From IMG/VR virus record IMGVR_UViG_3300021479_000013, positions 1-64,000 of that record: 64,000 nucleotides of DNA. One strand, written 5' to 3'. This DNA is from a virus. The first letter of the stretch is position 1. Each line of letters begins with the position of its first letter. Made by a program: the position numbers and the translations under genes. This document shows positions 4,744 to 51,495 of this stretch, piece after piece. The notes under the pieces were generated by a model. The model searched no databases and was not told the origin of the DNA. It saw only the letters and a list, made by a program, of their open reading frames with translations.

Positions 4744-5519
4744 AGTGATCTCCTCTCGATTTTGAATTCGGAAGTCGTACGGCCCTTCCAGTTGGTGCCC
4801 ATACCGGCGTCTTCCGACTCCAGATGGTAGCATACAATCTCAGGAACAAATCCGCGCTTGCCGCGAGGCCAGAGCTTGGAGAACAGCATATCGGTTCGGC
4901 CCGCGTCGCCGTGCGCCTTCGGGTAATGGTAAACGCTGCTGACCCAAGGGTGCCACAGCTGAAAGAATCCTATCGGTACCCAGCCGGTGTCGTGCGCCAT
5001 AACGCGCGTGGCGACGTCGAAGTCGTGGTTGTTAAGGTGGATATAAGCCTCGCACTCGTGCTGCAGCTTCGGTGAACGGAGGAACTCGCCCCACGCGCCC
5101 GCTCCCTTAACGTTGAAACGGTCTGCTCCGTAGATCATCGACTTATCGAGGCACGCGCGCTCCAAAAGTCGGCGGGTCTGAGGAGGCAGCCAGATGTCCG
5201 CGTCCAGGTGAAGGACCCACCCGTCTAGTTCCAGATGCTGGAGTCCTTGGTCGATAGCGTCGCCCTTGAACATCCCGGGGTCGCTCAGTTCCGGACATAC
5301 CACGCAGTGCACGTGGTAGAACTCGCACAGCTTCCGAGTCTTACGGTCTTCCTTGCTGGTCACCACGACCAGCTTGTCGAACATCTGCTTATTGTGGGGC
5401 AGCGTGTAAGCGAGAAAGTCCGAGTACTCCCTGCAGACGATAACGCACTCCAGCTTGAAACGGTCTTCTCTCTTCTCTTCCGCGCACTCTTGCTCGTGAT
5501 ACATCCAGCCCCCTAACAT
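4707..5519 (-). CDS. Glycosyltransferase (GT-A fold, GT2-like)
   Basis: WVLHLDADI DxD motif; GFFQLW; promoter TTGACA-17-TATGGT at about 5544-5572. Confidence 0.75.
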   Translation of the reverse strand: MLGGWMYHEQECAEEKREDRFKLECVIVCREYSDFLAYTLPHNKQMFDKLVVVTSKEDRKTRKLCEFYHVHCVVCPELSDPGMFKGDAIDQGLQHLELDGWVLHLDADIWLPPQTRRLLERACLDKSMIYGADRFNVKGAGAWGEFLRSPKLQHECEAYIHLNNHDFDVATRVMAHDTGWVPIGFFQLWHPWVSSVYHYPKAHGDAGRTDMLFSKLWPRGKRGFVPEIVCYHLESEDAGMGTNWKGRTTSEFKIERRSLWQTFSKLWKKR

Positions 5520-6510: not shown

Positions 6511-7313
6511 ATTGTTCCCTCCAGGTTGAGTTTTTCAATCAGCCACTTCGTTTTCAGTGTGTGGTACTCGGGCGAGCGATGATTCCAGTTCGACGCGCGT
6601 AGGTAGTGAATCCCGATAGGCTTGTCGTCTATAGAGATATTCTCGTACTCGGACGGATGAAAGTCGGTCGTCGGGTCGTCTGGGACGAAGTATTGCTGGA
6701 TAAGAGTCGGATTCAGTTCCGGGTGCGATTTCAGGTAGAAGAAGCTTTGCCCGCCGATGTCCGTGACTATTCCGTTCACGAAGCTGCCCCACCAGTTGAT
6801 TTGTTCAGGATTTGGAAGTCTAGACATATCGGCCAAGACCAGCGCGTCGTGCATGTGAATCCCACCCAGGTTCGGGCGAGACTGCGGCATAAAGCATAGC
6901 GGCGTCGTTACCAGGTAGTCTGTCAACTTGATAGGCCGGGTGAAGAACATGTCTGGGTGCAGGAGGCAGACGGCCCCCTTCTCTTTCATAATGTGGAACT
7001 CCCACGTATAAAAGCACCCGTAGCAGCCCGCGCAGTTGGGATTGCTCCAAGAGCCCTGGCGGTTGAATACCGTGCAAGACTTCTCGACCGCGTTGCACTT
7101 GTCTTCCAAAGACTGGACCCGCTCGACGTCGAAGACCGAGATTCCCAGCTTCCCGCACATCTCGTCGATCTTGACCTTCTCCGCTGGACGGTCAAACTTG
7201 GCGTTGTTTAATATCGTGAACGTGAAGTCCTCTTGGATGTACTTCTGGAAAGACTTCAGCTGCAGTTCGATCAAGTCCGACCGGTTGCTCGTGAACGCGA
7301 ATATGTTAATCAT
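6507..7313 (-). CDS. Putative glycosyltransferase (GT-A-like)
   Basis: CLLHPDMF at the DxD-like position; TDIGG; lies in the sugar cluster. Confidence 0.5.
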
Positions 7314-8242
7314 CTGCTCTCCTGGGCCAGCTTGGCTGCGGATAGTAGGCTGTCAATTTTGTTTAAGTAGGTATGCTTTTGGGCGACATCGTCCATCAGC
7401 GCGTGGAGCGTTTCCGACGCGATGCTAGCCAGATGATCTCGCGCGTCAAAAAAGAGTTCGTACGGGTCCGAGTTATAAATCAACCTGCCTCGGAAAGTTT
7501 GGTTAGCACAGAGATTGTTCGTCGCGCACATCTGGCCGTAGGACAAGGCCTTGAAGACCCGGCACGGCAGGTAGCCTACCGTGTTCTGATAAGCTAAGGA
7601 GATTGCTGGCGCGATGTATGAGTCTTGTACCAGCCTAACGTTCTCTTCGATAGATACAGGGGAGCCGCCGAAGCCCCCGATCAGATTGAAGTTGATTCCG
7701 CTCTCTTTGCACGCGGCAGCGAACGGAGCTTGCTCCGGTACCGATGTTCCCACGTAGTTGACGTCCCGGCTCCAGTCTCGGAAGACCTTACTCGGCTTGT
7801 TCGCCATGATCTCGTGAGGCAGAAGGTCTGTGGCCCAACGGAAGACTACAGCATCATACGAGTCCCAGGGCTGAGGGAAGAAGAACGTATCCCTGCTCAG
7901 CTCGATTGCGTTTGAGGGAATATCCATGCTGTCGACGTATAGCCCGTAGTTGATGGTTAAAAAGCCCTTCGTGTACTCCTTAGCGCGGGCTTCCATATTG
8001 TGGACCGCATAGAAGCAGTCCGAGCGGAGGGGCATACCTTTAATCGCGTACTCCATGCTGATGAAGAACGTGTTCGAGAAATCTACCCGGAAGGTGTCGT
8101 CGTGCGCGTCCAGCCAGCTGACCTGGCGCTCCGGGAATCGGGACTTTAGCGCGCGGTAAAAGGCCTCCAGAATGTGACGGAAGGAGTTGTACTGCCCGCT
8201 TTTAAATCCCCAAACGCAGAAGTTGCAGGTCTTTAAGTTCAT
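7310..8242 (-). CDS. Putative glycosyltransferase (GT-B C-terminal, CgeB-like)
   Basis: YLPCRVFKALSYG and QKHTYLNKI motifs. Confidence 0.6.
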   Translation of the reverse strand: MNLKTCNFCVWGFKSGQYNSFRHILEAFYRALKSRFPERQVSWLDAHDDTFRVDFSNTFFISMEYAIKGMPLRSDCFYAVHNMEARAKEYTKGFLTINYGLYVDSMDIPSNAIELSRDTFFFPQPWDSYDAVVFRWATDLLPHEIMANKPSKVFRDWSRDVNYVGTSVPEQAPFAAACKESGINFNLIGGFGGSPVSIEENVRLVQDSYIAPAISLAYQNTVGYLPCRVFKALSYGQMCATNNLCANQTFRGRLIYNSDPYELFFDARDHLASIASETLHALMDDVAQKHTYLNKIDSLLSAAKLAQESR

Positions 8243-30550: not shown

Positions 30551-30901
30551 CTATTGTTTCACCGGCTCGTCGCCGTTTTCCAAGCGCTCGACGCCGTCTG
30601 TGTCGGGCATGGTCATCTCGCCTGTCATCGGAAAAATCGAGACGTCCATCTTGACAATCCACTTCATCGGAACGATCATGCGGTCGGCTGGCATCTTCAT
30701 TATATCGATCAAAGCGCCCTGGTCCCGCTGGCATATCATCGCCTGCATTCTCACGAACGCGCCAGCTTGGGCCTCGATAGCCTCGTCGTACATCTTGGCG
30801 TCGTAGCCTTTCATTAAGAGGAAGGCGTAAATCACCGGGGGCAGGCCGTTCGCCTGCCCGTCCGTTGATATGTGTCCGTTGAACCTGATTGCGTGGTCCA
30901 T
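30551..30901 (-). CDS. Hypothetical protein
   Basis: TAATG overlap. Confidence 0.65.
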   Translation of the reverse strand: MDHAIRFNGHISTDGQANGLPPVIYAFLLMKGYDAKMYDEAIEAQAGAFVRMQAMICQRDQGALIDIMKMPADRMIVPMKWIVKMDVSIFPMTGEMTMPDTDGVERLENGDEPVKQ

Positions 30902-31251
30902 TAGCTCAGTTGGACTTTCGCGGGATGCCCGCTCTTGATTGCTTCGTTAGTCTGGCGCGCGTGCGCGGCTGCTTGTGCGGCCTGGGCGATAGCTGCCTGG
31001 TTGCCTGCTACGAGCTTGGGCTGTTCCAGAATGTTGTGAACGCCCGTGCTGATTGCCTTGACTTCGCATACGTCCGAGCAGTACACCAAATTTCGTCCGT
31101 CGGCAGTCTGTGTCACGCGGGTCGCGCGCAGCCAGACGTTCTCGGGTAGCTCAAACGTTTCCTTCTCTGCCTTACGGTCGTACATGATTCCTTTGGTGCA
31201 CTCGGGGCCGTCACAAGAGATTGCCCTGATCTGACTGTCTACGATTCCCAT
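30901..31251 (-). CDS. Hypothetical protein (Cys motifs)
   Basis: CDGPEC and YCSDVC; AGGAG RBS. Confidence 0.7.
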   Translation of the reverse strand: MGIVDSQIRAISCDGPECTKGIMYDRKAEKETFELPENVWLRATRVTQTADGRNLVYCSDVCEVKAISTGVHNILEQPKLVAGNQAAIAQAAQAAAHARQTNEAIKSGHPAKVQLS

Positions 31252-47219: not shown

Positions 47220-47536
47220 GCCGCAAGTCCGTCACGATTCTCGGCGTCAAGATTCCTTTGGCCAATATCATCTCGACACCAAAGTTGACAGAAGCTTGGA
47301 TAGGGTCGCCCTTTCTTCGCCGTCGCAACGACTGGGTGGCGGTCGCCCCATCCACCCCTTCGAAAGAGTACGGGTCATCGTCTGGCACTTATCTAGGCGG
47401 CTATTATGATTATTGCACCTTCTCCACGTTCGCAGTCGATAACAAGTTCGACGACAGGATTTTAACGGCAGCAAAAGAACAAGCCGATGAATACGTTCGA
47501 CGACTCAACAAGTTAGTTCAGGGCGAGTATGTCTAA
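47216..47536 (+). CDS. Hypothetical protein
   Basis: GTGA overlap. Confidence 0.6.
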   Translation: MSRKSVTILGVKIPLANIISTPKLTEAWIGSPFLRRRNDWVAVAPSTPSKEYGSSSGTYLGGYYDYCTFSTFAVDNKFDDRILTAAKEQADEYVRRLNKLVQGEYV

Positions 47537-47711
47537 GAAAAATATTACGTCGAAAGAGAAAATCGATAACAACACGATTCACGTGACATTCGAGAACCCA
47601 GACGGCACACGCAAGTATGAATTTCGTGGAGCCTCAATGCGCGCCATCCAGCGCGGCAAAGACCCGGCCACTCTAAGTGGTGGTAGATTAGTGGAGCACA
47701 AAAAGTCATGA
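47529..47711 (+). CDS. Hypothetical protein
   Basis: Operon packing. Confidence 0.6.
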   Translation: MSKKNITSKEKIDNNTIHVTFENPDGTRKYEFRGASMRAIQRGKDPATLSGGRLVEHKKS

Positions 47712-48064
47712 GCAAAAGCATAGCCCCAGGCGGCAGCGACACGTTCGAGCACGGTGCGGACGGAGACCCGGAAGACTACACCCCCACGTATTACGGCAAA
47801 AAGAAACTGGAGAAGCACAGCCCCTCGTACTCGGTTTATTACAAGCCAGCGACAGAGGCCGCAGCAGGCGGCTCCGGTGAGAACCAGAACGAAGTAGGCG
47901 GACAGAGCTACCCCGGGCGCAAGACCCCTCAGGCCCAAGCGGTTACTACGGCCACAGAACAGTCCGGCTCCACGGTGCGCCAAGGCCAGAAACAGACCGG
48001 CCTGAACCGTTACCCGATAAACGAACACGAAGAGAAAGCGAAACACACAGGTCCGAACAACTAG
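47708..48064 (+). CDS. Hydrophilic hypothetical protein
   Basis: ATGA overlap. Confidence 0.6.
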   Translation: MSKSIAPGGSDTFEHGADGDPEDYTPTYYGKKKLEKHSPSYSVYYKPATEAAAGGSGENQNEVGGQSYPGRKTPQAQAVTTATEQSGSTVRQGQKQTGLNRYPINEHEEKAKHTGPNN

Positions 48065-48079
48065 TTCAAAGGAATAACA

Positions 48080-48265
48080 ATGTTCACATTCTCCGCAATC
48101 ACAATCGTAGTCTCCGCTCTGCTAGGCTTTGCAGGCGGGCGAGTTCATCACCCAGCAAATTTGAAGGTCGCGGCCATCAAGGCCGAGATCGCAAAGATCG
48201 AAACAGAAGTTAAGGCATACGTGATCGCCAGCGCGATTGTCGTTCGCCTTAAAAAACTCCTTTAA
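48080..48265 (+). CDS. Small membrane protein
   Basis: N-terminal TM segment; AAGGA RBS. Confidence 0.65.
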   Translation: MFTFSAITIVVSALLGFAGGRVHHPANLKVAAIKAEIAKIETEVKAYVIASAIVVRLKKLL

Positions 48266-48282
48266 TTCACGAGGTAACTTTC

Positions 48283-48570
48283 ATGTCGTCAGCAAACACC
48301 ACAGCAGCATCTAGCGCGCACGCGCCAGAGAAGTGCATGTCCAGCGAACAGCCGCACGCCCACAAGTACCCGGGCCGCGCGACACCGAAGGCCGAGAAGG
48401 TCACCGACGCGTCTCACGACGCAGCGGCGCTTAAGACAGGTCGGTCCTTATCGATGGGCGTCTCGGCAGACGGCTCACACAAGGGCATCCCGACGAGCAT
48501 GGAAGAGGTTGGCCGTCACACGACGCAGCCCGCCACGCCCAAGTTCGCGCACAAGTACCCCGGAGTCTAG
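48283..48570 (+). CDS. Hypothetical protein with repeated AHKYPG motif
   Basis: GAGG RBS; HAHKYPG and FAHKYPG. Confidence 0.65.
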   Translation: MSSANTTAASSAHAPEKCMSSEQPHAHKYPGRATPKAEKVTDASHDAAALKTGRSLSMGVSADGSHKGIPTSMEEVGRHTTQPATPKFAHKYPGV

Positions 48571-48634
48571 GGCTTAAAAGAGTTTAAAGATTTCCCTTGA
48601 CAACAAGGGGAAACTGTGGTAGGATGGTATCACG

Positions 48635-48820
48635 ATGAAGACATACGAAAGAGAGATGTGGATTCCGTCTAAAAACGGCGTCGGTATCCCTCCGAAGTTT
48701 TTATCATGTCCAGAGTGCGGGGGCACTATGCGACCACGCCCAGGCCACAGATATGTTTGCCAAGAATGTGAAACAGAAACAACGTTAGACATGACACCGC
48801 TCGATCACAAAAAGAGGTGA
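48635..48820 (+). CDS. Zn-ribbon protein with own promoter
   Basis: CPEC..CQEC; TTGACA-17-TAGGAT at 48597-48625. Confidence 0.65.
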   Translation: MKTYEREMWIPSKNGVGIPPKFLSCPECGGTMRPRPGHRYVCQECETETTLDMTPLDHKKR

Positions 48821-48822
48821 CT

Positions 48823-49197
48823 ATGACCACGTATCAGCAATCTAACTTGCCTTTTGTCGGTAACGCAGCACAGAGATACCCCATTAAAGACCTCTCGCAG
48901 TTCGTTTGCAGGGGGCTGTACTTCAACGATGACAACATCGAGTTCTTCATGCAAGGCGCTGGCAAGGTTCTGTTTTCACAAAGCACCCCGGCGCTGGTAG
49001 CTCCCGGAACACTGACTGTCACAGGCTTCACCCTGCCACAGCAGTCGACTCCCGGAACGTTCGCGTTCGACTGGTCTGTTAAGGACTCAGACGGCGTAGT
49101 GCTGGCCACCGGTTCGTGTGCAGGCACCTGGATGCAGTTCGCCTTCGGCGGATACTATCATCCTAAGCTGTTGACGAACTCTTTGACCGTCAACTAA
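48823..49197 (+). CDS. Hypothetical beta-rich protein
   Basis: GAGGT RBS. Confidence 0.65.
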   Translation: MTTYQQSNLPFVGNAAQRYPIKDLSQFVCRGLYFNDDNIEFFMQGAGKVLFSQSTPALVAPGTLTVTGFTLPQQSTPGTFAFDWSVKDSDGVVLATGSCAGTWMQFAFGGYYHPKLLTNSLTVN

Positions 49198-49438
49198 ATC
49201 AATCCCGCCTGTCAGGGCAGTCGTCTAGGACGCAGTACTGACCATCTGCCCCGTATGGCCGTGAGGCGACGGGCGCAAATTTACAGGGCGGCAGGAGCAT
49301 CACTGTGCCGTCCTCAATTTTCTAACCGAGCCGACTTGTCTGTCGGATAAGACACTCGGGGCAGAGCACCCACGGGCCTAGTCGCCGCAAGGCGGGTAAA
49401 GGTTGCTCTTCGAAAGGCCCAAACTTTCTGCCCATCGC

Positions 49439-49523
49439 TGGGCTGTGGCTCAACTGGTACAGCAGGTGACTGTTAATCACCCAGTGCGAAAGCACATTAC
49501 AGGTTCGAATCCTGTTGGCCCAG
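49439..49523 (+). tRNA. tRNA-Asn(GTT) with long variable arm
   Basis: Acceptor TGGGCTG/TGGCCCA; anticodon arm GGTGA-CTGTTAA-TCACC; V-arm GTGC-GAAA-GCAC; T-arm ACAGG-TTCGAAT-CCTGT; G73; no encoded CCA. Confidence 0.88.
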
Positions 49524-49939
49524 CAATGAGCAGAACAATTTTAGAGACTGGTGCTGCCGGACTAGAAGGACGTTATCCGGGCGAGTCTCTGAAGGCGTTG
49601 TACAACAGAGAGAACAAAAAATCCCAGGGTAGCTCCCGTGGGCCTGTATCCTCGCTAGGATAAGTTCTCTCGCTCATCAAAAATGAGCCAAGCGCGTAGG
49701 GACCGCGCGCTGATTAAATAGTCCCTCAATTTTGTAGTTTGGGAAGTAGGCGTCAGGTATAAAGGCATAACCCGAGCGCCCTCGACAACCCAAACGTGTC
49801 TACGATTTCGGGGCCAGTGTGCAGCGTAAGCTGGCAGCGTGAGCCGATTAGCGACTCGTAGCCCCGACCTCTTTACCCTTATAGTACCCGTTAACCAGCT
49901 TAACGACCACTATAAGGGTACATAAGTTCAGGAGCAACG

Positions 49940-50026
49940 ATGTCAATCATATTTGAATTGATCGGAGGCGTGCTGTTTTTTATCTTGCTCGCCTCGTGGC
50001 TCTTCAAGTCGCCTAAGGGCGAATAA
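49940..50026 (+). CDS. 28-aa single-TM peptide
   Basis: AGGAG RBS; MSIIFELIGGVLFFILLASWLFKSPKGE. Confidence 0.6.
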   Translation: MSIIFELIGGVLFFILLASWLFKSPKGE

Positions 50027-50209
50027 ATTTTTCACTCCCGGTAAATCTATAAGTCGGAACTGAGAAGCCGAGCCGGGACAATTTTTACCGTTCTCTGGAT
50101 AGTCCCGACTTCACAGTCTGCTGGAATACCAGTCATGAGGGAGAACAATTGAACACCCACGGCGGGTCTAGAAAACCTGTTTAACGTGGTGGAGTTCTTT
50201 AAAATTTCT

Positions 50210-50283
50210 GGGCTGTTAGTTAAGCGGGATAACGGTTGCCTTGCACGCATCAGTCAGGAGTTCGATTCTCCTACGGTCCACCA
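50210..50283 (+). tRNA. tRNA-Ala(TGC)
   Basis: G3:U70 pair; anticodon loop CT-TGC-AC; TTCGATT T-loop; A73-CCA. Confidence 0.9.
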
Positions 50284-50300
50284 ATTTGACTCGGTGACAT

Positions 50301-50543
50301 ATGACGATATCAGACGCAGCCTCAATCGCAGCACTGGTAGTCGATCTAGTCGCCTTGTATTTTCTAATCGGCATTTGGAAGGACGACAGGGCTATGCGGG
50401 TCGCAGCAGAGGAATCCCTGCAAGTACAAAAAGATTATCTAGGAATGCGGCGTAAGTGGTATGAAGGCCGCACAAAGAAAAAGGACGAAAAGAATGTCGC
50501 TCAGCTTAGACCAACGGATGGCGTTGACGCGGACAATCTGTAA
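50301..50543 (+). CDS. Small membrane protein
   Basis: N-terminal TM segment. Confidence 0.55.
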   Translation: MTISDAASIAALVVDLVALYFLIGIWKDDRAMRVAAEESLQVQKDYLGMRRKWYEGRTKKKDEKNVAQLRPTDGVDADNL

Positions 50544-50633
50544 TATCGTCGGGGTCATCATCTCAATCGTGTACGTGATATGGGTGATGAGCAAGTAAAA
50601 TTTAAACGACTTTAAACGAGTTTAGGAGAACAA

Positions 50634-50981
50634 ATGTTTACACCTCCAGCAGGCACATGGACCACGGGACAGACGGCTATCCTGGCAGCACTAGTTCTCA
50701 CCACGCTCGTAGCAGTGTTAGGCGACGCGTATACCACGATGGCAGGATTGGCTAAAGGCCTCGCGGAAGGTAACCCGGTCATGAAGTTTTTCTTCTCTAA
50801 GATCGGTCAGTCGCTGACGGCATTCCTCTCAGCGGTCGCGGTACTGGCATTCGGAACTGTCGTCGCGGCGCACAGCCTCGGCGCGGCTTACGTGTTCTTC
50901 GGCGGCGTCACAATCGCAGAAGGCATCGTAACCCTTCGCAACTATTTGAAGCTGAAGGCAGCAAAGATTTCTTTGAAATAA
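50634..50981 (+). CDS. Membrane protein (DUF5658-like)
   Basis: DAYTT...EGNPVM motif; 3 TM segments. Confidence 0.7.
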   Translation: MFTPPAGTWTTGQTAILAALVLTTLVAVLGDAYTTMAGLAKGLAEGNPVMKFFFSKIGQSLTAFLSAVAVLAFGTVVAAHSLGAAYVFFGGVTIAEGIVTLRNYLKLKAAKISLK

Positions 50982-50990
50982 ATTTTCTAA

Positions 50991-51065
50991 GCCTTGATGA
51001 TCTAGCGGTCATGATGTCGCACTTGTAATGCGAACGCCGAGGTTCGACTCCTCGTCGAGGCCCCA
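50991..51065 (+). tRNA. tRNA-Thr(TGT)
   Basis: GCCTTGA/TCGAGGC acceptor; TCGCA-CTTGTAA-TGCGA anticodon arm; TTCGACT; CCA. Confidence 0.92.
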
Positions 51066-51099
51066 AATATTATACGCACCTTAGATTCACGGAGATTTC

Positions 51100-51495
51100 A
51101 TGTCAGCACCAACACCTACAGCAATGTATTCGACGAACAGTTCGCAGTCCGGTCTAACCGTCGCGGCTGCGTTCCCCCAGAACACGACACAAGGCGTCGG
51201 CGGGCAGAACCTCGACCTCATCCAGATCGTCGGCCTCGGCGGCAGCATCCTCTTGAACGTAGACTTCAACGGCACCGTGCACAACCCGGCTGTCGCAGCT
51301 ACCACTTCTGCAGGCGGAATCGGCCAGACGCGCGTCGGGCAGTTCCAGACCAATCTTTCCAGCACCGCGACGACAGCTCAGCTGTTCGCGAGCGCCTTTG
51401 CTAACCCGTCATTGCTTGACGTACTCCAGATCGTCAATGAAGGTGGTAATATACATTACAACCTGAATTACCTCGGAGTCGCGTCCGGGTCCTAA
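51100..51495 (+). CDS. Putative virion structural protein with internal repeat
   Basis: LDLIQIVGLGG and LDVLQIVNEGG repeats; T/A/S/N-rich. Confidence 0.6.
   Translation: MSAPTPTAMYSTNSSQSGLTVAAAFPQNTTQGVGGQNLDLIQIVGLGGSILLNVDFNGTVHNPAVAATTSAGGIGQTRVGQFQTNLSSTATTAQLFASAFANPSLLDVLQIVNEGGNIHYNLNYLGVASGS

What the first reader, a model, noticed from the sequence alone, without database searches (positions are those of the whole stretch)
49204..50185. Dense array of non-tRNA structured RNA modules punctuated like a tRNA operon
Seen: about 1 kb that is nearly devoid of credible ORFs and almost continuously base-paired. Helices include AGGGCGGCA/TGCCGTCCT (49285-49314), TAGAGACT/AGTCTCTG (49542-91), a GAGAGAAC/GTTCTCTC three-way junction (49608-71), GCTCAT/ATGAGC, GTTTGGG/CCCAAAC (49737-95), TCGGGGC/GCCCCGA (49808-67), a perfect 12-bp TACCCTTATAGT/ACTATAAGGGTA rod (49874-920), TCCCGG/CCGGGA (about 50035-79) and a GTTCTC/GAGAAC multibranch (about 50090-146), plus GNRA loops and pseudoknots. 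Modules are separated by the same AATTT-type spacers that flank tRNA-Ala and tRNA-Thr. Inference: a polycistronic precursor processed into many distinct small RNAs, possibly decoys for host defence nucleases or toxins, or pieces of one large RNA (GOLLD and ROOL are known near phage tRNAs). This is my best candidate for an undescribed system.
Basis: partly seen in the sequence, partly recalled or inferred. Interest (0 to 1): 0.78.

Follow-up and report, generated by a model that had tools for sequence, protein, structure and literature searches.

The report
Folded small RNAs in phage tRNA island
A soil phage's shrunken tRNA gene cluster holds a row of folded non-tRNA RNA modules, and one 140-base module belongs to a conserved, uncatalogued RNA family whose relatives carry loops that seem built to pair with a second copy of the RNA; its job is unknown.

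Summary
The helices and AATTT-type spacers are real. The stretch is the remodelled tRNA island of an uncultured soil phage. Relatives carry up to about 30 tRNAs in this slot; this phage keeps three.

Folding energy alone is not significant (blind z-scores, p=0.17). The evidence is comparative.

Module 49596-49735 ("M5") belongs to an RNA family with no Rfam match:
- 34 hits, 25 distinct sequences, always inside tRNA arrays.
- A three-way junction, a hairpin and an H-type pseudoknot, all covarying (19 of 30 pairs; 0 of 500 shuffles).
- 21 of 21 relatives with the UGGU loop carry a perfect 6-nt palindrome (six kinds), which suggests RNA-RNA pairing. The window's copy lacks that loop.

Other modules show single compensatory changes or an invariant loop, and they move as cassettes. 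50084-50209 has no support.

The spacer is the clade's tRNA trailer (CCA-AUUUU), so co-processing with tRNAs is likely. One large RNA, GOLLD/ROOL and HDV-like ribozymes are not supported. Function is unknown.

The scan has seen other non-tRNA RNAs in phage tRNA arrays, but found no look-alike of this family.

The parts
49206..49275 (+). M1: multi-helix module (outer stem CGCCTGTC/GACGGGCG, inner GGGCAG/CTGCCC, GNRA hairpin GCC-GTGA-GGC), followed by CA-AATTT.
   Evidence: Folds (z -1.66). In L087 (93% identical region) the GNRA hairpin changes to ACC-GCAA-GGT, a compensatory change, but the outer stems lose 1-2 pairs. Absent from L003 together with ORF 48817-49197.
49285..49314 (+). M2: 9-bp G+C-rich hairpin followed by CAATTTT.
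   Evidence: z -2.59. 33 of 34 bases identical in L003 and L087, the one change lying in the loop, while the flanking coding DNA is 77-79% identical to L003.
49319..49438 (+). M3: about 117-nt two-unit RNA directly 5' of the tRNA. Unit 1 is CCGAG[CCGAC-loop-GTCGG]...CTCGG. Unit 2 has crossing helices AGAGCA/TGCTCT and GGGCCT/AGGCCC around a CGCC-GCAA-GGCG hairpin.
   Evidence: 94.8% identical to L003 and 98.3% to L087. The pair A:T in CCGAC/GTCGG becomes C:G in both, and C:G becomes T:G in L003. GNRA loop GCAA becomes GTAA in L003. Model R2 finds it only in this lineage. The pseudoknot pairings never vary, so they are untested.
49439..49524 (+). tRNA-Asn(GUU) with a class II-like long variable arm (GUGC-GAAA-GCAC), U1:A72, G73, no encoded CCA.
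   Evidence: ARAGORN and Rfam tRNA, 51.7 bits. Compensatory changes in the acceptor, anticodon, extra and T stems against L003. 6 distinct long forms and 16 normal-length Asn(GUU) tRNAs in the family.
49541..49592 (+). M4: hairpin with an invariant 14-nt loop CTAGAAGGACGTTA (49562-49575) and a 7-8-bp outer stem.
   Evidence: The loop is identical while the outer stem is wholly different in L007 (ATCGCGT/ACGCGAT, in the tRNA array) and in L011/L012 (GAGTAACG/CGTTACTC, between ORFs downstream of the terminase gene). Absent from L003 and L087. Z -2.64.
49596..49735 (+). M5: member of a conserved, uncatalogued RNA family of about 140 nt. Elements: 5' palindrome GTTGTACAAC (49597-49606); P1 49608-49615 with 49664-49671, closing a junction with P2 (loop TAGCT) and P3; P4 49672-49688; P5 49692-49696 with 49704-49708; pseudoknot 49698-49703 with 49721-49726 across the linker TGATTAAAT; then CAATTT.
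   Evidence: Model R1: 34 hits, 25 distinct sequences. Always inside tRNA arrays. Covariation on a MAFFT alignment: 19 of 30 pairs change on both sides, 0 of 500 shuffles reach this. No Rfam hit here or in relatives.
49735..49801 (+). M6: GTTTGGG/CCCAAAC stem enclosing a long irregular hairpin.
   Evidence: z -1.48. C49754:G49774 becomes T:A in L074, a double change that keeps the pair. C>T at 49754 is also seen in DNA runs X2 and X3. No homologue beyond L074.
49807..49868 (+). M7: 7-bp stem TCGGGGC/GCCCCGA closing two hairpins, one CAGC-GTAA-GCTG.
   Evidence: z -1.28. In L074 the second hairpin is replaced by a different, GAAA-capped hairpin inside the same GAG/CTC closing pairs.
49874..49920 (+). 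M8: perfect 12-bp rod plus a 6-bp apical stem across a 3x3 internal loop, 19 nt upstream of the small ORF's start.
   Evidence: Z -6.8 and -4.7. An equally stable hairpin forms on the minus strand (z -7.5). Replaced by unrelated sequence in L074. L003 has an unrelated rod of like design after its M5 (z -7.65). RNase III-type site is inference only.
49940..50026 (+). Conserved 28-aa hydrophobic small ORF (MSIIFELIGGVLFFILLASWLFKSPKGE) with ribosome-binding site AGGAG.
   Evidence: 27 of 28 residues identical in L074; 19 of 28 in L007 and in L082 (L003 type), with KxPKGE kept. It lies inside the tRNA array in L007.
50033..50080 (+). M9: movable hairpin cassette of about 47 nt (TCCCGG...CCGGGA, inner TCGG/CCGA) bounded by AATTTTT on both sides.
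   Evidence: A 90-92% identical copy sits between M1 and M2 in L087. A DNA-run variant skips exactly 50028-50081 with 5 shared letters at the joint, and another shows the L087-type insertion after 49274. All differences lie in loops. Z -2.59.
50088..50205 (+). M10 and M11: predicted multibranch (GTTCTC/GAGAAC) and hairpin, without comparative support.
   Evidence: Z -0.80 and -2.44. Absent from L003. Replaced in L074 by an HNH endonuclease ORF and another tRNA-Ala. No homologue in 880 kb of relatives' loci.
50210..50283 (+). tRNA-Ala(UGC) with encoded CCA followed by ATTT; this is the 3' boundary of the stretch.

Best explanation
The 1-kb stretch is the remodelled core of a phage tRNA island.

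How it is made (inferred). It is transcribed rightward with the flanking small genes and tRNAs. Host tRNA-maturation enzymes cut it into discrete small RNAs. The cuts fall at the AU-rich trailer (C)CA-AUUUU, which in this phage clade follows almost every tRNA and here also follows the non-tRNA modules, and at tRNA 5' ends (RNase P).

What the products are:
- A long-armed tRNA-Asn(GUU).
- M5 (49596-49735), a conserved RNA of about 140 nt. It occurs once per array in most related phages searched, and is kept even where nearly all tRNAs have been lost. Its fold is a three-way junction, a hairpin and a 3' H-type pseudoknot with an A-rich linker. I read the pseudoknot as a block against 3' exonucleases.
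- Lineage-specific structured modules (M1-M4, M6, M7, M9).
- A rod hairpin in front of a conserved 28-aa ORF.

M5 as a self-pairing RNA (inferred). M5 carries self-complementary single-stranded elements: a 5' palindrome of 8-10 nt in all copies, and a 6-nt palindrome in the P3 loop of most relatives. I therefore think it acts as a dimer or higher assembly. My guess is that it binds or titrates a factor of tRNA or translation metabolism during infection.

Cassette turnover. The modules behave as cassettes. They are exchanged at the shared AAUUU linkers, probably helped by homing endonucleases.

Shown: the structures, their conservation and covariation, the array context, the shared trailer, the cassette turnover, and presence in RNA libraries.
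Inferred: the processing enzymes, the stability of the products, the dimerisation and the function.
For: Context.
- The terminase large subunit and portal genes lie 6-9 kb downstream.
- 18 of 49 loci related through the terminase gene hold 3-27 tRNAs in the same upstream slot.
- The window keeps Asn(GUU), M5, ORF28, Ala and Thr(UGU) in the order seen in full arrays.

Trailer.
- Over 374 distinct tRNAs the consensus is CCA, A (80%), U/G, U (82%), U (89%), U (73%).
- 5 CAATTT copies lie within 1 kb here, all on the + strand.

M5.
- Seven matches with E of 1e-10 or better, plus one weak match that I reject, in 10 full relatives' records.
- All 24 metagenome loci are hit at E of 3.3e-8 or better.
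- It always lies between the Pro/Asn/Asp tRNAs and tRNA-Leu(UAG), in several loci within 0-12 nt of a neighbouring tRNA.
- On MAFFT alignment A11, 92.7% of cells pair against 80.1% in shuffles. 19 of 30 pairs change on both sides (shuffles 8.8 +/- 1.7; 0 of 500 reach it). Slid controls score 0.085 or less against 0.322. The pseudoknot helix has 4 of 5 covarying pairs.
- U:G pairs fix the strand as +.
- 21 of 21 distinct sequences with the UGGU loop have a perfect palindromic hexamer, of six kinds. At 17 other offsets the count is 0-2 of 21.
- The 5' element is a palindrome in all 25 distinct sequences, in three forms.

Other modules.
- Compensatory changes in M1, M3 and M6, and a structure-preserving hairpin swap in M7.
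- M4 has an invariant loop with fully covarying stems.
- M2, M3 and M5 are 95-99% identical to L003 where coding flanks are 77-79%.

Cassettes.

RNA libraries: contigs identical to the window cover 48609-49360, 49406-49591 and 49606-49895 in run X4. A run from another study covers 48609-49370.
Against: - Blind folding z-scores do not separate the region from coding DNA (p = 0.17).
- The RNA-library evidence is from contigs. These show neither strand, ends nor level, and DNA may be present in such libraries.
- No discrete small RNA has been observed.
- M1's outer stems lose pairs in L087.
- M3, M6, M7 and M9 rest on one to three relatives each. M10 and M11 have no support at all.
- The window's own M5 lacks the palindromic P3 loop (loop CGCU; 4 of 25 distinct sequences). 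For this copy, dimerisation rests on the 5' palindrome alone.
- The metagenome hits were selected with a pattern holding three conserved blocks, so conservation of those blocks is partly by construction.
- The host, and therefore its nucleases, are unknown.
Confidence: 0.7

Rival explanations
1. Decay products. The modules are relics of the roughly 30 tRNA genes (and other array genes) that this lineage lost. They are scrambled by deletions and no longer functional.
For: Relatives hold up to 27-31 tRNAs in the same slot where the window holds 3. Most modules are lineage-specific. Blind z-scores are not significant. M10 and M11 have no comparative support, and M1's outer stems are partly broken in L087.
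Against: No module scores as tRNA even at E up to 10. M2, M3 and M5 are better conserved than neighbouring coding DNA. There are compensatory changes in M1, M3, M5 and M6. M5 coexists with full arrays in relatives, so it is not a relic of them.
Confidence: 0.1
2. Cis-acting processing or control hairpins only. The smaller modules (M2, M4, M8, M9 and perhaps M1) are RNase III/E sites, stabilisers, leaky terminators or protein-binding operators within a long mRNA/tRNA transcript. They are not free small RNAs.
For: M8 is a rod of about 18 bp with an internal loop, just upstream of the ORF28 ribosome-binding site. An unrelated rod of like design occurs in L003. M4's copy in L011/L012 lies between protein genes outside the tRNA array. 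M2 is a G+C-rich hairpin followed by a short T run. M9 is a simple movable hairpin.
Against: This does not explain M5 or M3, which are multi-domain and pseudoknotted and occupy tRNA-like gene slots. The terminator scan did not flag M2 or M8. Nothing shows cleavage.
Confidence: 0.3
3. Self-cleaving ribozymes that mature the neighbouring tRNAs, such as the HDV-like theta ribozymes described next to phage tRNAs (PMC10879173).
For: M3 unit 2 has two crossing helices with a hairpin between them and a C in the short joiner before the last strand. M5 abuts tRNAs in relatives. Theta ribozymes are reported adjacent to phage tRNAs (PMC10879173; abstract and passages read).
Against: No Rfam ribozyme family matches at E up to 10. 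In M3 the hairpin loop is a GNRA tetraloop that cannot form the small extra helix, and 9 nt separate the hairpin from the returning strand. L003 has T at the C position, the change that the paper says inactivates such ribozymes. My own loose descriptor gave 33 distinct hits in the region against 4-53 per 1.2 kb elsewhere.
Confidence: 0.04
4. DNA-level elements. The palindromes and AATTT linkers are recombination, homing-endonuclease or regulator-binding sites, and the 'RNA structures' are by-products of inverted repeats.
For: Cassettes are exchanged at the linkers: a joint with 5 shared letters, and M9 at two sites. An HNH endonuclease gene sits in this slot in L074. M8 folds as well on the minus strand.
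Against: Conserved U:G pairs would be C:A mismatches on the other strand. Six different palindromes at one loop position argue for pairing and against a sequence-specific protein site. The pseudoknot covaries. All CAATTT copies are on one strand.
Confidence: 0.08
5. One large multi-domain RNA of about 1 kb, in the manner of GOLLD or ROOL.
For: Both classes occur near phage tRNA islands (PMC12286853, passages read). The MFE fold of the whole stretch pairs distant parts.
Against: There is no Rfam hit. A tRNA and a conserved ORF lie inside the stretch. Modules are independently present, absent, replaced or moved in L003, L087, L074 and the DNA runs. In relatives M5 is flanked directly by tRNAs.
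Confidence: 0.02

Closest known systems
Phage T4 species 1 and 2 stable RNAs (rnaC 139 nt, rnaD 119 nt) in the T4 tRNA cluster
   Same: They are non-tRNA structured RNAs of similar size, encoded flush with tRNA genes on the same strand (annotation of NC_000866). That they are co-processed with the tRNAs and that their function is unknown is my recollection.
   Different: There is no homology: models R1 and R2 score nothing on rnaC or rnaD with filters off. T4 rnaC ends in a tRNA-like T arm. M5 has no tRNA-like arm, ends in a pseudoknot and carries palindromic elements.
GOLLD and ROOL (and OLE) large ornate RNAs
   Same: They are phage or prophage RNAs often found near tRNA islands. They self-assemble through kissing loops, and palindrome-preserving covariation in loops was used as evidence for intermolecular pairing (PMC12286853, passages read). 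M5's relatives show the same kind of covariation.
   Different: They are described as large (many GOLLD members exceed 800 nt) against about 140 nt here. No Rfam match. The fold is different. Assembly of M5 is untested.
HDV-like theta ribozymes beside phage tRNAs (PMC10879173)
   Same: They are small pseudoknotted RNAs adjacent to phage tRNA genes, proposed to act in tRNA end maturation.
   Different: The fold requirements are not met, and the would-be catalytic C is T in a relative. No ribozyme family is hit.
phi29-type packaging RNA (pRNA) and retroviral dimerisation-site kissing loops (both recalled, not tested beyond the Rfam scan)
   Same: pRNA is a phage-encoded RNA built on a three-way junction that multimerises by loop-loop pairing. 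The retroviral sites are self-complementary 6-nt hairpin loops that drive dimer formation.
   Different: No Rfam family matches M5. M5 lies in a tRNA array and not at a genome end. Nothing links it to the packaging motor.
tRNA-shaped non-decoding RNAs and Y-RNA-like genes of phage tRNA arrays, noted by earlier reports of this scan
   Same: The genomic niche is the same, and L003 has such a tRNA-shaped RNA (5390-5492, with a 17-nt 'anticodon' loop) where the window has M6-M8.
   Different: The window's modules are not cloverleaves: the Rfam tRNA model gives no hit at E up to 10. No look-alike of M5 was found among earlier findings.

Membership tests
tRNA (Rfam RF00005 / ARAGORN) | Cloverleaf scoring above threshold with the tRNA covariance model | tested here: not met
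   Only 49439-49524, 50210-50283 and 50991-51065 score. No other tRNA match at E up to 10 in 48800-51400. M5 homologues in five relatives are not hit either.
GOLLD / ROOL | Match to the Rfam covariance models; one large RNA with conserved long-range architecture | tested here: not met
   No hit at the gathering score or at E up to 10. Modules vary independently.
HDV-like / theta ribozyme | Nested double pseudoknot with the hairpin directly abutting the returning first helix, a small extra helix from the hairpin loop, and a cytosine at the start of the last joiner | tested here: not met
   In M3 unit 2 the loop is a GNRA tetraloop, there is a 9-nt spacer, and C is T in L003. The descriptor scan shows no enrichment. 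That descriptor was written from memory because the paper's own is in a closed supplement.
HDV-like / theta ribozyme | Self-cleavage at the ribozyme's 5' end | not testable with these tools
   Needs in vitro transcription.
T4 rnaC / rnaD kind (stable non-tRNA RNAs of a phage tRNA cluster) | Encoded within the tRNA cluster, same strand, flush with tRNAs | tested here: met
T4 rnaC / rnaD kind (stable non-tRNA RNAs of a phage tRNA cluster) | Sequence or structure homology to rnaC or rnaD | tested here: not met
   R1 and R2 with filters off on the T4 region: no hit on rnaC or rnaD beyond noise.
T4 rnaC / rnaD kind (stable non-tRNA RNAs of a phage tRNA cluster) | Accumulates as a discrete stable RNA processed from the tRNA precursor | not testable with these tools
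   Only contigs from RNA libraries are available. They show no ends.
M5 RNA family (defined here) | P1-P2-P3 junction, P4, and P5 with pseudoknot, with conserved ACAGAG, the UAGCU loop and the UGAYAAAU-type linker | tested here: met
   Window 49596-49735 scores 176 bits; it is a seed of the model. Independent members score 34-57 bits with E 1e-7 to 1e-14, and the helices covary.
Self-complementary kissing-loop dimer RNAs | Palindromic hexamer in a hairpin loop, kept palindromic through substitutions | tested here: inconclusive
   Met in 21 of 21 relatives that have the UGGU loop. Not met in the window's own copy (loop CGCU; 4 of 25 distinct sequences), which keeps only the 10-nt 5' palindrome. 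Physical dimerisation is untested.
Bacterial RNase P RNA class A (RF00010) | Match to the covariance model | tested here: not met
   No match in the window's genome or in 48800-51400 at E up to 10. Relatives do have one.

The most novel reading that the evidence does not exclude
M5 is a new class of small self-assembling phage RNA. It would be a 140-nt, three-way-junction-plus-pseudoknot molecule that uses two or three self-complementary elements (the 5' palindrome, the P3-loop hexamer, the AGCU in the P2 loop) to form dimers or closed or chain multimers. That would make it a miniature counterpart of the ROOL/GOLLD assemblies that also live in phage tRNA islands. The assembly would serve a core infection function, because it is kept even in phages that have discarded nearly all their tRNAs and their own RNase P RNA.
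Probability: 0.3. Interest if true: 0.8.

Novelty: new variant of a known kind. Interest (0 to 1): 0.62.

Why it matters
Non-tRNA RNAs in phage tRNA clusters have been known since the T4 species 1 and 2 RNAs, and as far as I recall their role is still unexplained.

This case offers a compact, well-supported new family: 25 distinct sequences, with all six helices showing compensatory changes. It has a built-in, testable hint of RNA-RNA self-association. That is small enough for direct biochemistry and structure work.

It also shows that such islands are built from cassettes sharing one processing trailer. That gives a simple rule for finding more hidden RNA genes in phage genomes.

The relatives' reduced RNase P RNA gene, if confirmed and truly undescribed, would mean that some phages bring their own tRNA-processing ribozyme.

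Tried and rejected
- blastn of 49150-50300 against 50,697 GenBank phage records found no match.
- Relatives of ORF 48817-49197 in IMG/VR: none.
- An exact IMG/VR scan for the M4 loop found only the three known lineages plus two AT-rich chance matches without a hairpin.
- An exact IMG/VR scan for two M5 blocks found only three known contigs.
- Model R2 (M3) finds nothing outside the window/L003 lineage, in 728 kb, in 55 kb, and in five full records. An empty answer there proves little.
- A partner for the M4 loop in the window: its complement occurs only as the site itself, and near-matches are at the chance level (20 against 16.9 expected).
- T4 rnaC and rnaD are not homologous.
- HDV-like fold: no enrichment. 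I considered hammerhead-like and pistol-like readings of M5 by eye and dropped them, because the order of junction strands does not fit and no Rfam ribozyme family scores.
- tRNA-shaped reading of M5: no acceptor pairing between the 5' end and the 3' tail, and no tRNA-model hit.
A smaller one ran.
- RNA runs gave no contig over 49896-50630 in X4. That is no evidence of silence.
- The common start of the RNA contigs at 48609 in two studies lies in the 3' arm of an inverted repeat. It may be an assembly break and not an RNA end, so I do not use it as a start site.
- The sigma-70-like promoter at 48597-48625 is only a consensus match.
- L068 (R1 hit, E 0.004-0.008, no tRNA nearby) was dropped as a probable false positive before all counts. 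L087 was left out of A11 because its M5 is cut by the contig end.
- Literature: I found no paper describing this RNA, with the searches. Of 149, 483 and 173 papers holding the terms, I saw only the 12-15 listed each time. The 8,495 unnamed IMG/VR candidates of PMC10690425 are in supplements that I could not open, so M5 may be among them.
- No paper holds the phrases searched for a phage RNase P RNA.
Full report
**What is there.** The window is part of an 82.4-kb IMG/VR virus record. A terminase large subunit gene and a portal gene lie 6-9 kb to the right.

- A tRNA with anticodon GTT and a long variable arm at 49439-49524 (ARAGORN; Rfam tRNA 51.7 bits).
- A 28-aa ORF with a ribosome-binding site at 49940-50026.

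No other Rfam family matches at the gathering score over the whole window, or at E up to 10 over 48800-51400.

**Is it more than chance?** Not by folding energy alone.
- Modules whose ends I chose give z from -0.8 to -6.8 on the + strand.
- In blind 100-nt windows the region averages -1.08 (19 windows) against -0.36 (220 windows elsewhere in 45-58 kb). Mann-Whitney p = 0.17. Only the M5 junction (-4.4) and the rod M8 (-9.85) stand out.
- The spacer motif is enriched. 5 of the window's 28 CAATTT copies lie in 49315-50287, all on the + strand.
The case therefore rests on comparison with relatives.

**Context: a shrunken tRNA island.**
- A terminase search in IMG/VR gave 49 loci. 18 of them hold 3 to 27 tRNA genes in the same slot upstream of the terminase gene. 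Metagenome contigs show up to 31.
- The usual order is His, Pro, Asn, Asp, Pro, [M5], Leu(UAG), Arg, Arg, Leu, Leu, Cys, [an RNase P RNA-like gene], Lys, Lys, Val, Ile, Glu, Glu, Ala, Ile, Met, Gly, Thr ... Gln.
- The window keeps Asn(GUU), M5, the small ORF (which lies in front of tRNA-Glu(UUC) and tRNA-Ala in L007), Ala and Thr(UGU) in that order. It has lost the rest.

**The punctuation.** Over 374 distinct tRNAs of these phages, the 3' end reads CCA (98%), then A (80%), U or G, U (82%), U (89%), U (73%). Leaders read roughly AAUUUC(U/A)G(U). In the window the non-tRNA modules end the same way but with CA in place of CCA: M1 ...GCG-CA-AATTT, M2 ...CCT-CA-ATTTT, M5 ...CCCT-CA-ATTTT, M9 ...GGGA-CA-ATTTTT. 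It means the modules share the tRNAs' trailer. That the trailer is an endonuclease site of the RNase E type is my inference from general knowledge of bacterial tRNA operons.

**M5 (49596-49735) is a member of a conserved RNA family.**
- Search. A covariance model built from the window and L003 (R1) found diverged copies in L039 and L042 (E 6.5e-7). In 10 full records of relatives it found eight matches. Seven have E of 1e-10 or better. The eighth (L068; E 0.004, no tRNAs nearby) I reject.
- More members. A pattern scan of metagenome contigs gave 24 loci. All are hit by R1 at E of 3.3e-8 or better. In total there are 34 hits and 25 distinct sequences.
- Position. Every copy lies inside a tRNA array, between the Pro/Asn/Asp tRNAs and tRNA-Leu(UAG), in several loci within 0-12 nt of a neighbouring tRNA.
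- Architecture: a 5' palindrome; P1 closing a three-way junction with P2 (loop UAGCU) and P3; hairpin P4; then P5, whose loop pairs with the 3' tail across a conserved A-rich linker, giving an H-type pseudoknot.
- Covariation. I used a structure-blind MAFFT alignment of 24 distinct sequences (A11; the copy in L087, cut by the contig end, was left out). 92.7% of cells pair, against 80.1% in shuffles. 19 of 30 pairs change on both sides (shuffles 8.8 +/- 1.7; 0 of 500 reach this). The covariation score is 0.322 against 0.103. Structures slid by 1-3 columns score 0.085 or less. All six helices, the pseudoknot included, have pairs with compensatory changes.
- Strand. Conserved U:G pairs place the RNA on the + strand.
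- Caveat. The 24 metagenome sequences were chosen with a pattern holding three conserved blocks. The helices and palindromes were not in the pattern.

**Self-complementary elements.**
- In all 21 distinct sequences whose P3 loop has the UGGU motif, the six bases before it are a perfect palindrome: GUCGAC 8, GUGCAC 8, GCGCGC 2, GCUAGC 1, CCUAGG 1, GCAUGC 1. At 17 other offsets the count is 0 to 2 of 21.
- The 5' element is a palindrome in all 25 distinct sequences: GUUGCAAC, GUUGUACAAC or GUCGCGAC.
- Adjacent bases cannot pair within one loop. Palindrome-preserving switches therefore point to pairing between two copies. This is the argument used for OLE and GOLLD in PMC12286853 (passages read).
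- The window's copy, like L074, L003 and L087, has a short P3 with loop CGCU and no hexamer. It has the 10-nt 5' palindrome.
- Dimerisation is inference. Nothing here tests it.

**The other modules.** Three comparators were informative:
- L003 and its metagenome twins: coding flanks 77-79% identical.
- L087: 93% identical over 47364-49716.
- L074: 88% identical over 49597-50031.

Module by module:
- M2: 33 of 34 bases identical in both L003 and L087, the one change in the loop.
- M3: 94.8% and 98.3% identical. One pair changes A:U to C:G in both relatives, one changes C:G to U:G in L003, and a GNRA loop changes GCAA to GUAA. Its proposed pseudoknot pairings never vary, so they are neither supported nor refuted.
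- M1: the GNRA hairpin changes GCC-GUGA-GGC to ACC-GCAA-GGU in L087, but the outer stems lose pairs.
- M4: an invariant 14-nt loop with a completely different outer stem in L007 (in the tRNA array) and in L011/L012 (between ORFs beyond the terminase gene). This looks like a specific binding or docking hairpin.
- M6: C49754:G49774 becomes U:A in L074.
- M7: one hairpin is replaced in L074 by another, GAAA-capped, within the same closing pairs.
- M8: replaced by unrelated sequence in L074. L003 has an unrelated rod of like design (z -7.65).
- M10 and M11: no support.

**Cassette behaviour.**
- M1 together with ORF 48817-49197 is absent from L003, which has an extra hairpin between M2 and M3.
- M4 is absent from L003 and L087.
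- M9 sits between M1 and M2 in L087. A DNA-run variant skips exactly 50028-50081 with five shared letters at the joint.
- M6-M8 are replaced in L003 by a rod and a tRNA-shaped RNA with a 17-nt 'anticodon' loop.
- M9-M11 are replaced in L074 by an HNH endonuclease ORF (Pfam PF01844, E 1.1e-5) and another tRNA-Ala.
This excludes one large RNA. It fits exchange at the shared linkers.

**Expression.** A soil metatranscriptome run (X4) has contigs identical to the window over 48609-49360, 49406-49591 and 49606-49895. A second study's run (X9) covers 48609-49370. Contigs show neither strand, ends nor level, and DNA can be present in such libraries. This is consistent with transcription and nothing more.

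**What it is not.**
- Not tRNAs, GOLLD, ROOL, tmRNA, or any Rfam ribozyme.
- Not homologous to T4 rnaC or rnaD, which are nevertheless the closest known analogues by position and size.
- Not convincingly HDV-like or theta.

**How it most likely works.**
- Shown: structure, conservation, context, trailer, cassettes.
- Inferred: co-transcription with the tRNAs, cutting at the AU-rich trailers and by RNase P at tRNA 5' ends, protection of M5's 3' end by its pseudoknot, and release of discrete small RNAs.
- For M5 I commit to a self-associating stable RNA that binds or titrates a factor of tRNA or translation metabolism. I put about 0.3 on self-association being real and functionally central. The specific target is unknown.
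- The window and L003 lineages keep M5 while lacking most tRNAs and the RNase P RNA-like gene of their relatives. This argues that M5's role does not depend on the size of the tRNA set.

**Novelty.** The kind, non-tRNA RNAs in phage tRNA clusters, is old, and this scan has met other examples. The M5 family has no Rfam match and no look-alike among earlier findings. I found no paper on it. It may be hidden among unnamed candidates in the closed supplements of PMC10690425.

Noticed in passing
L061 2418-2683; L063 2324-2650; L075 1674-1954 (-); L064 1-257 (-, cut); full records G001 7128-7454, G002 96408-96721, G003 97496-97804, G006 30757-31074: Relatives carry a reduced RNase P RNA-like gene (about 265-330 nt) inside the tRNA array, between tRNA-Cys and tRNA-Lys. 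Uncut matches to Rfam RF00010 score 85-98 bits, just under the 100-bit cut-off, with E 1e-27 to 1e-30 (the cut copy in L064 scores 49.6 bits). The conserved core blocks are kept. It is found in 4 of 4 records that are at least 90% complete among the five records searched. It is absent from the window's genome and from L003's genome. No paper held the phrases I searched for a phage RNase P RNA.
   Followed up: partly
window 49439-49524; also L003 5078-5164, L061 1173-1260, L066 1327-1414, L077 6956-7043: tRNA-Asn(GUU) with a class II-like extra arm. There are 6 distinct long forms (86-88 nt) beside 16 normal-length forms in the family. All have U1, A72 and G73. The extra arm covaries (GUGC/GCAC, GUCC/GGAC, GAGC/GCUC, GCGC/GCGC). 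L003 and L087 have C at position 33, and the window and L003 types lack an encoded CCA. ARAGORN also calls tRNA-Met(CAU) of 87-90 nt and tRNA-Ile(UAU) of 89-91 nt in relatives.
   Followed up: partly
L003 5390-5492 and 5329-5392: Where the window has M6-M8, L003 has two things. One is a cloverleaf-shaped RNA with an acceptor stem, a D arm, a T arm with an 8-nt loop and a 17-nt 'anticodon' loop; ARAGORN does not call it. The other is a 12-bp rod hairpin (z -7.65).
   Followed up: partly
L074 590-1180: An HNH endonuclease ORF (PF01844, E 1.1e-5) sits between the small ORF and tRNA-Ala. Its open frame runs on across the tRNA-Ala gene (1090-1166).
   Followed up: partly
L007 1190-1280 and 4153-4240: By eye there are two probable tRNAs that ARAGORN missed: a Glu(CUC)-like one and a long-arm Ser(UGA)-like one. 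Gaps in these arrays are therefore not all non-tRNA.
   Followed up: no
window 48593-48615: An inverted repeat CCCTTG-ACAA-CAAGGG overlaps the -35 hexamer of the sigma-70-like promoter 48597-48625. RNA-library contigs from two studies both begin at 48609, inside its 3' arm.
   Followed up: no
window 49455-49596: A DNA-run contig (X2) replaces 49455-49596 (most of the tRNA plus M4) with 100 other letters. The window's tRNA differs from those of L087 and L003 by many compensatory changes although the flanks are 93-98% identical to L087. The tRNA gene itself seems to be exchanged as a cassette.
   Followed up: partly
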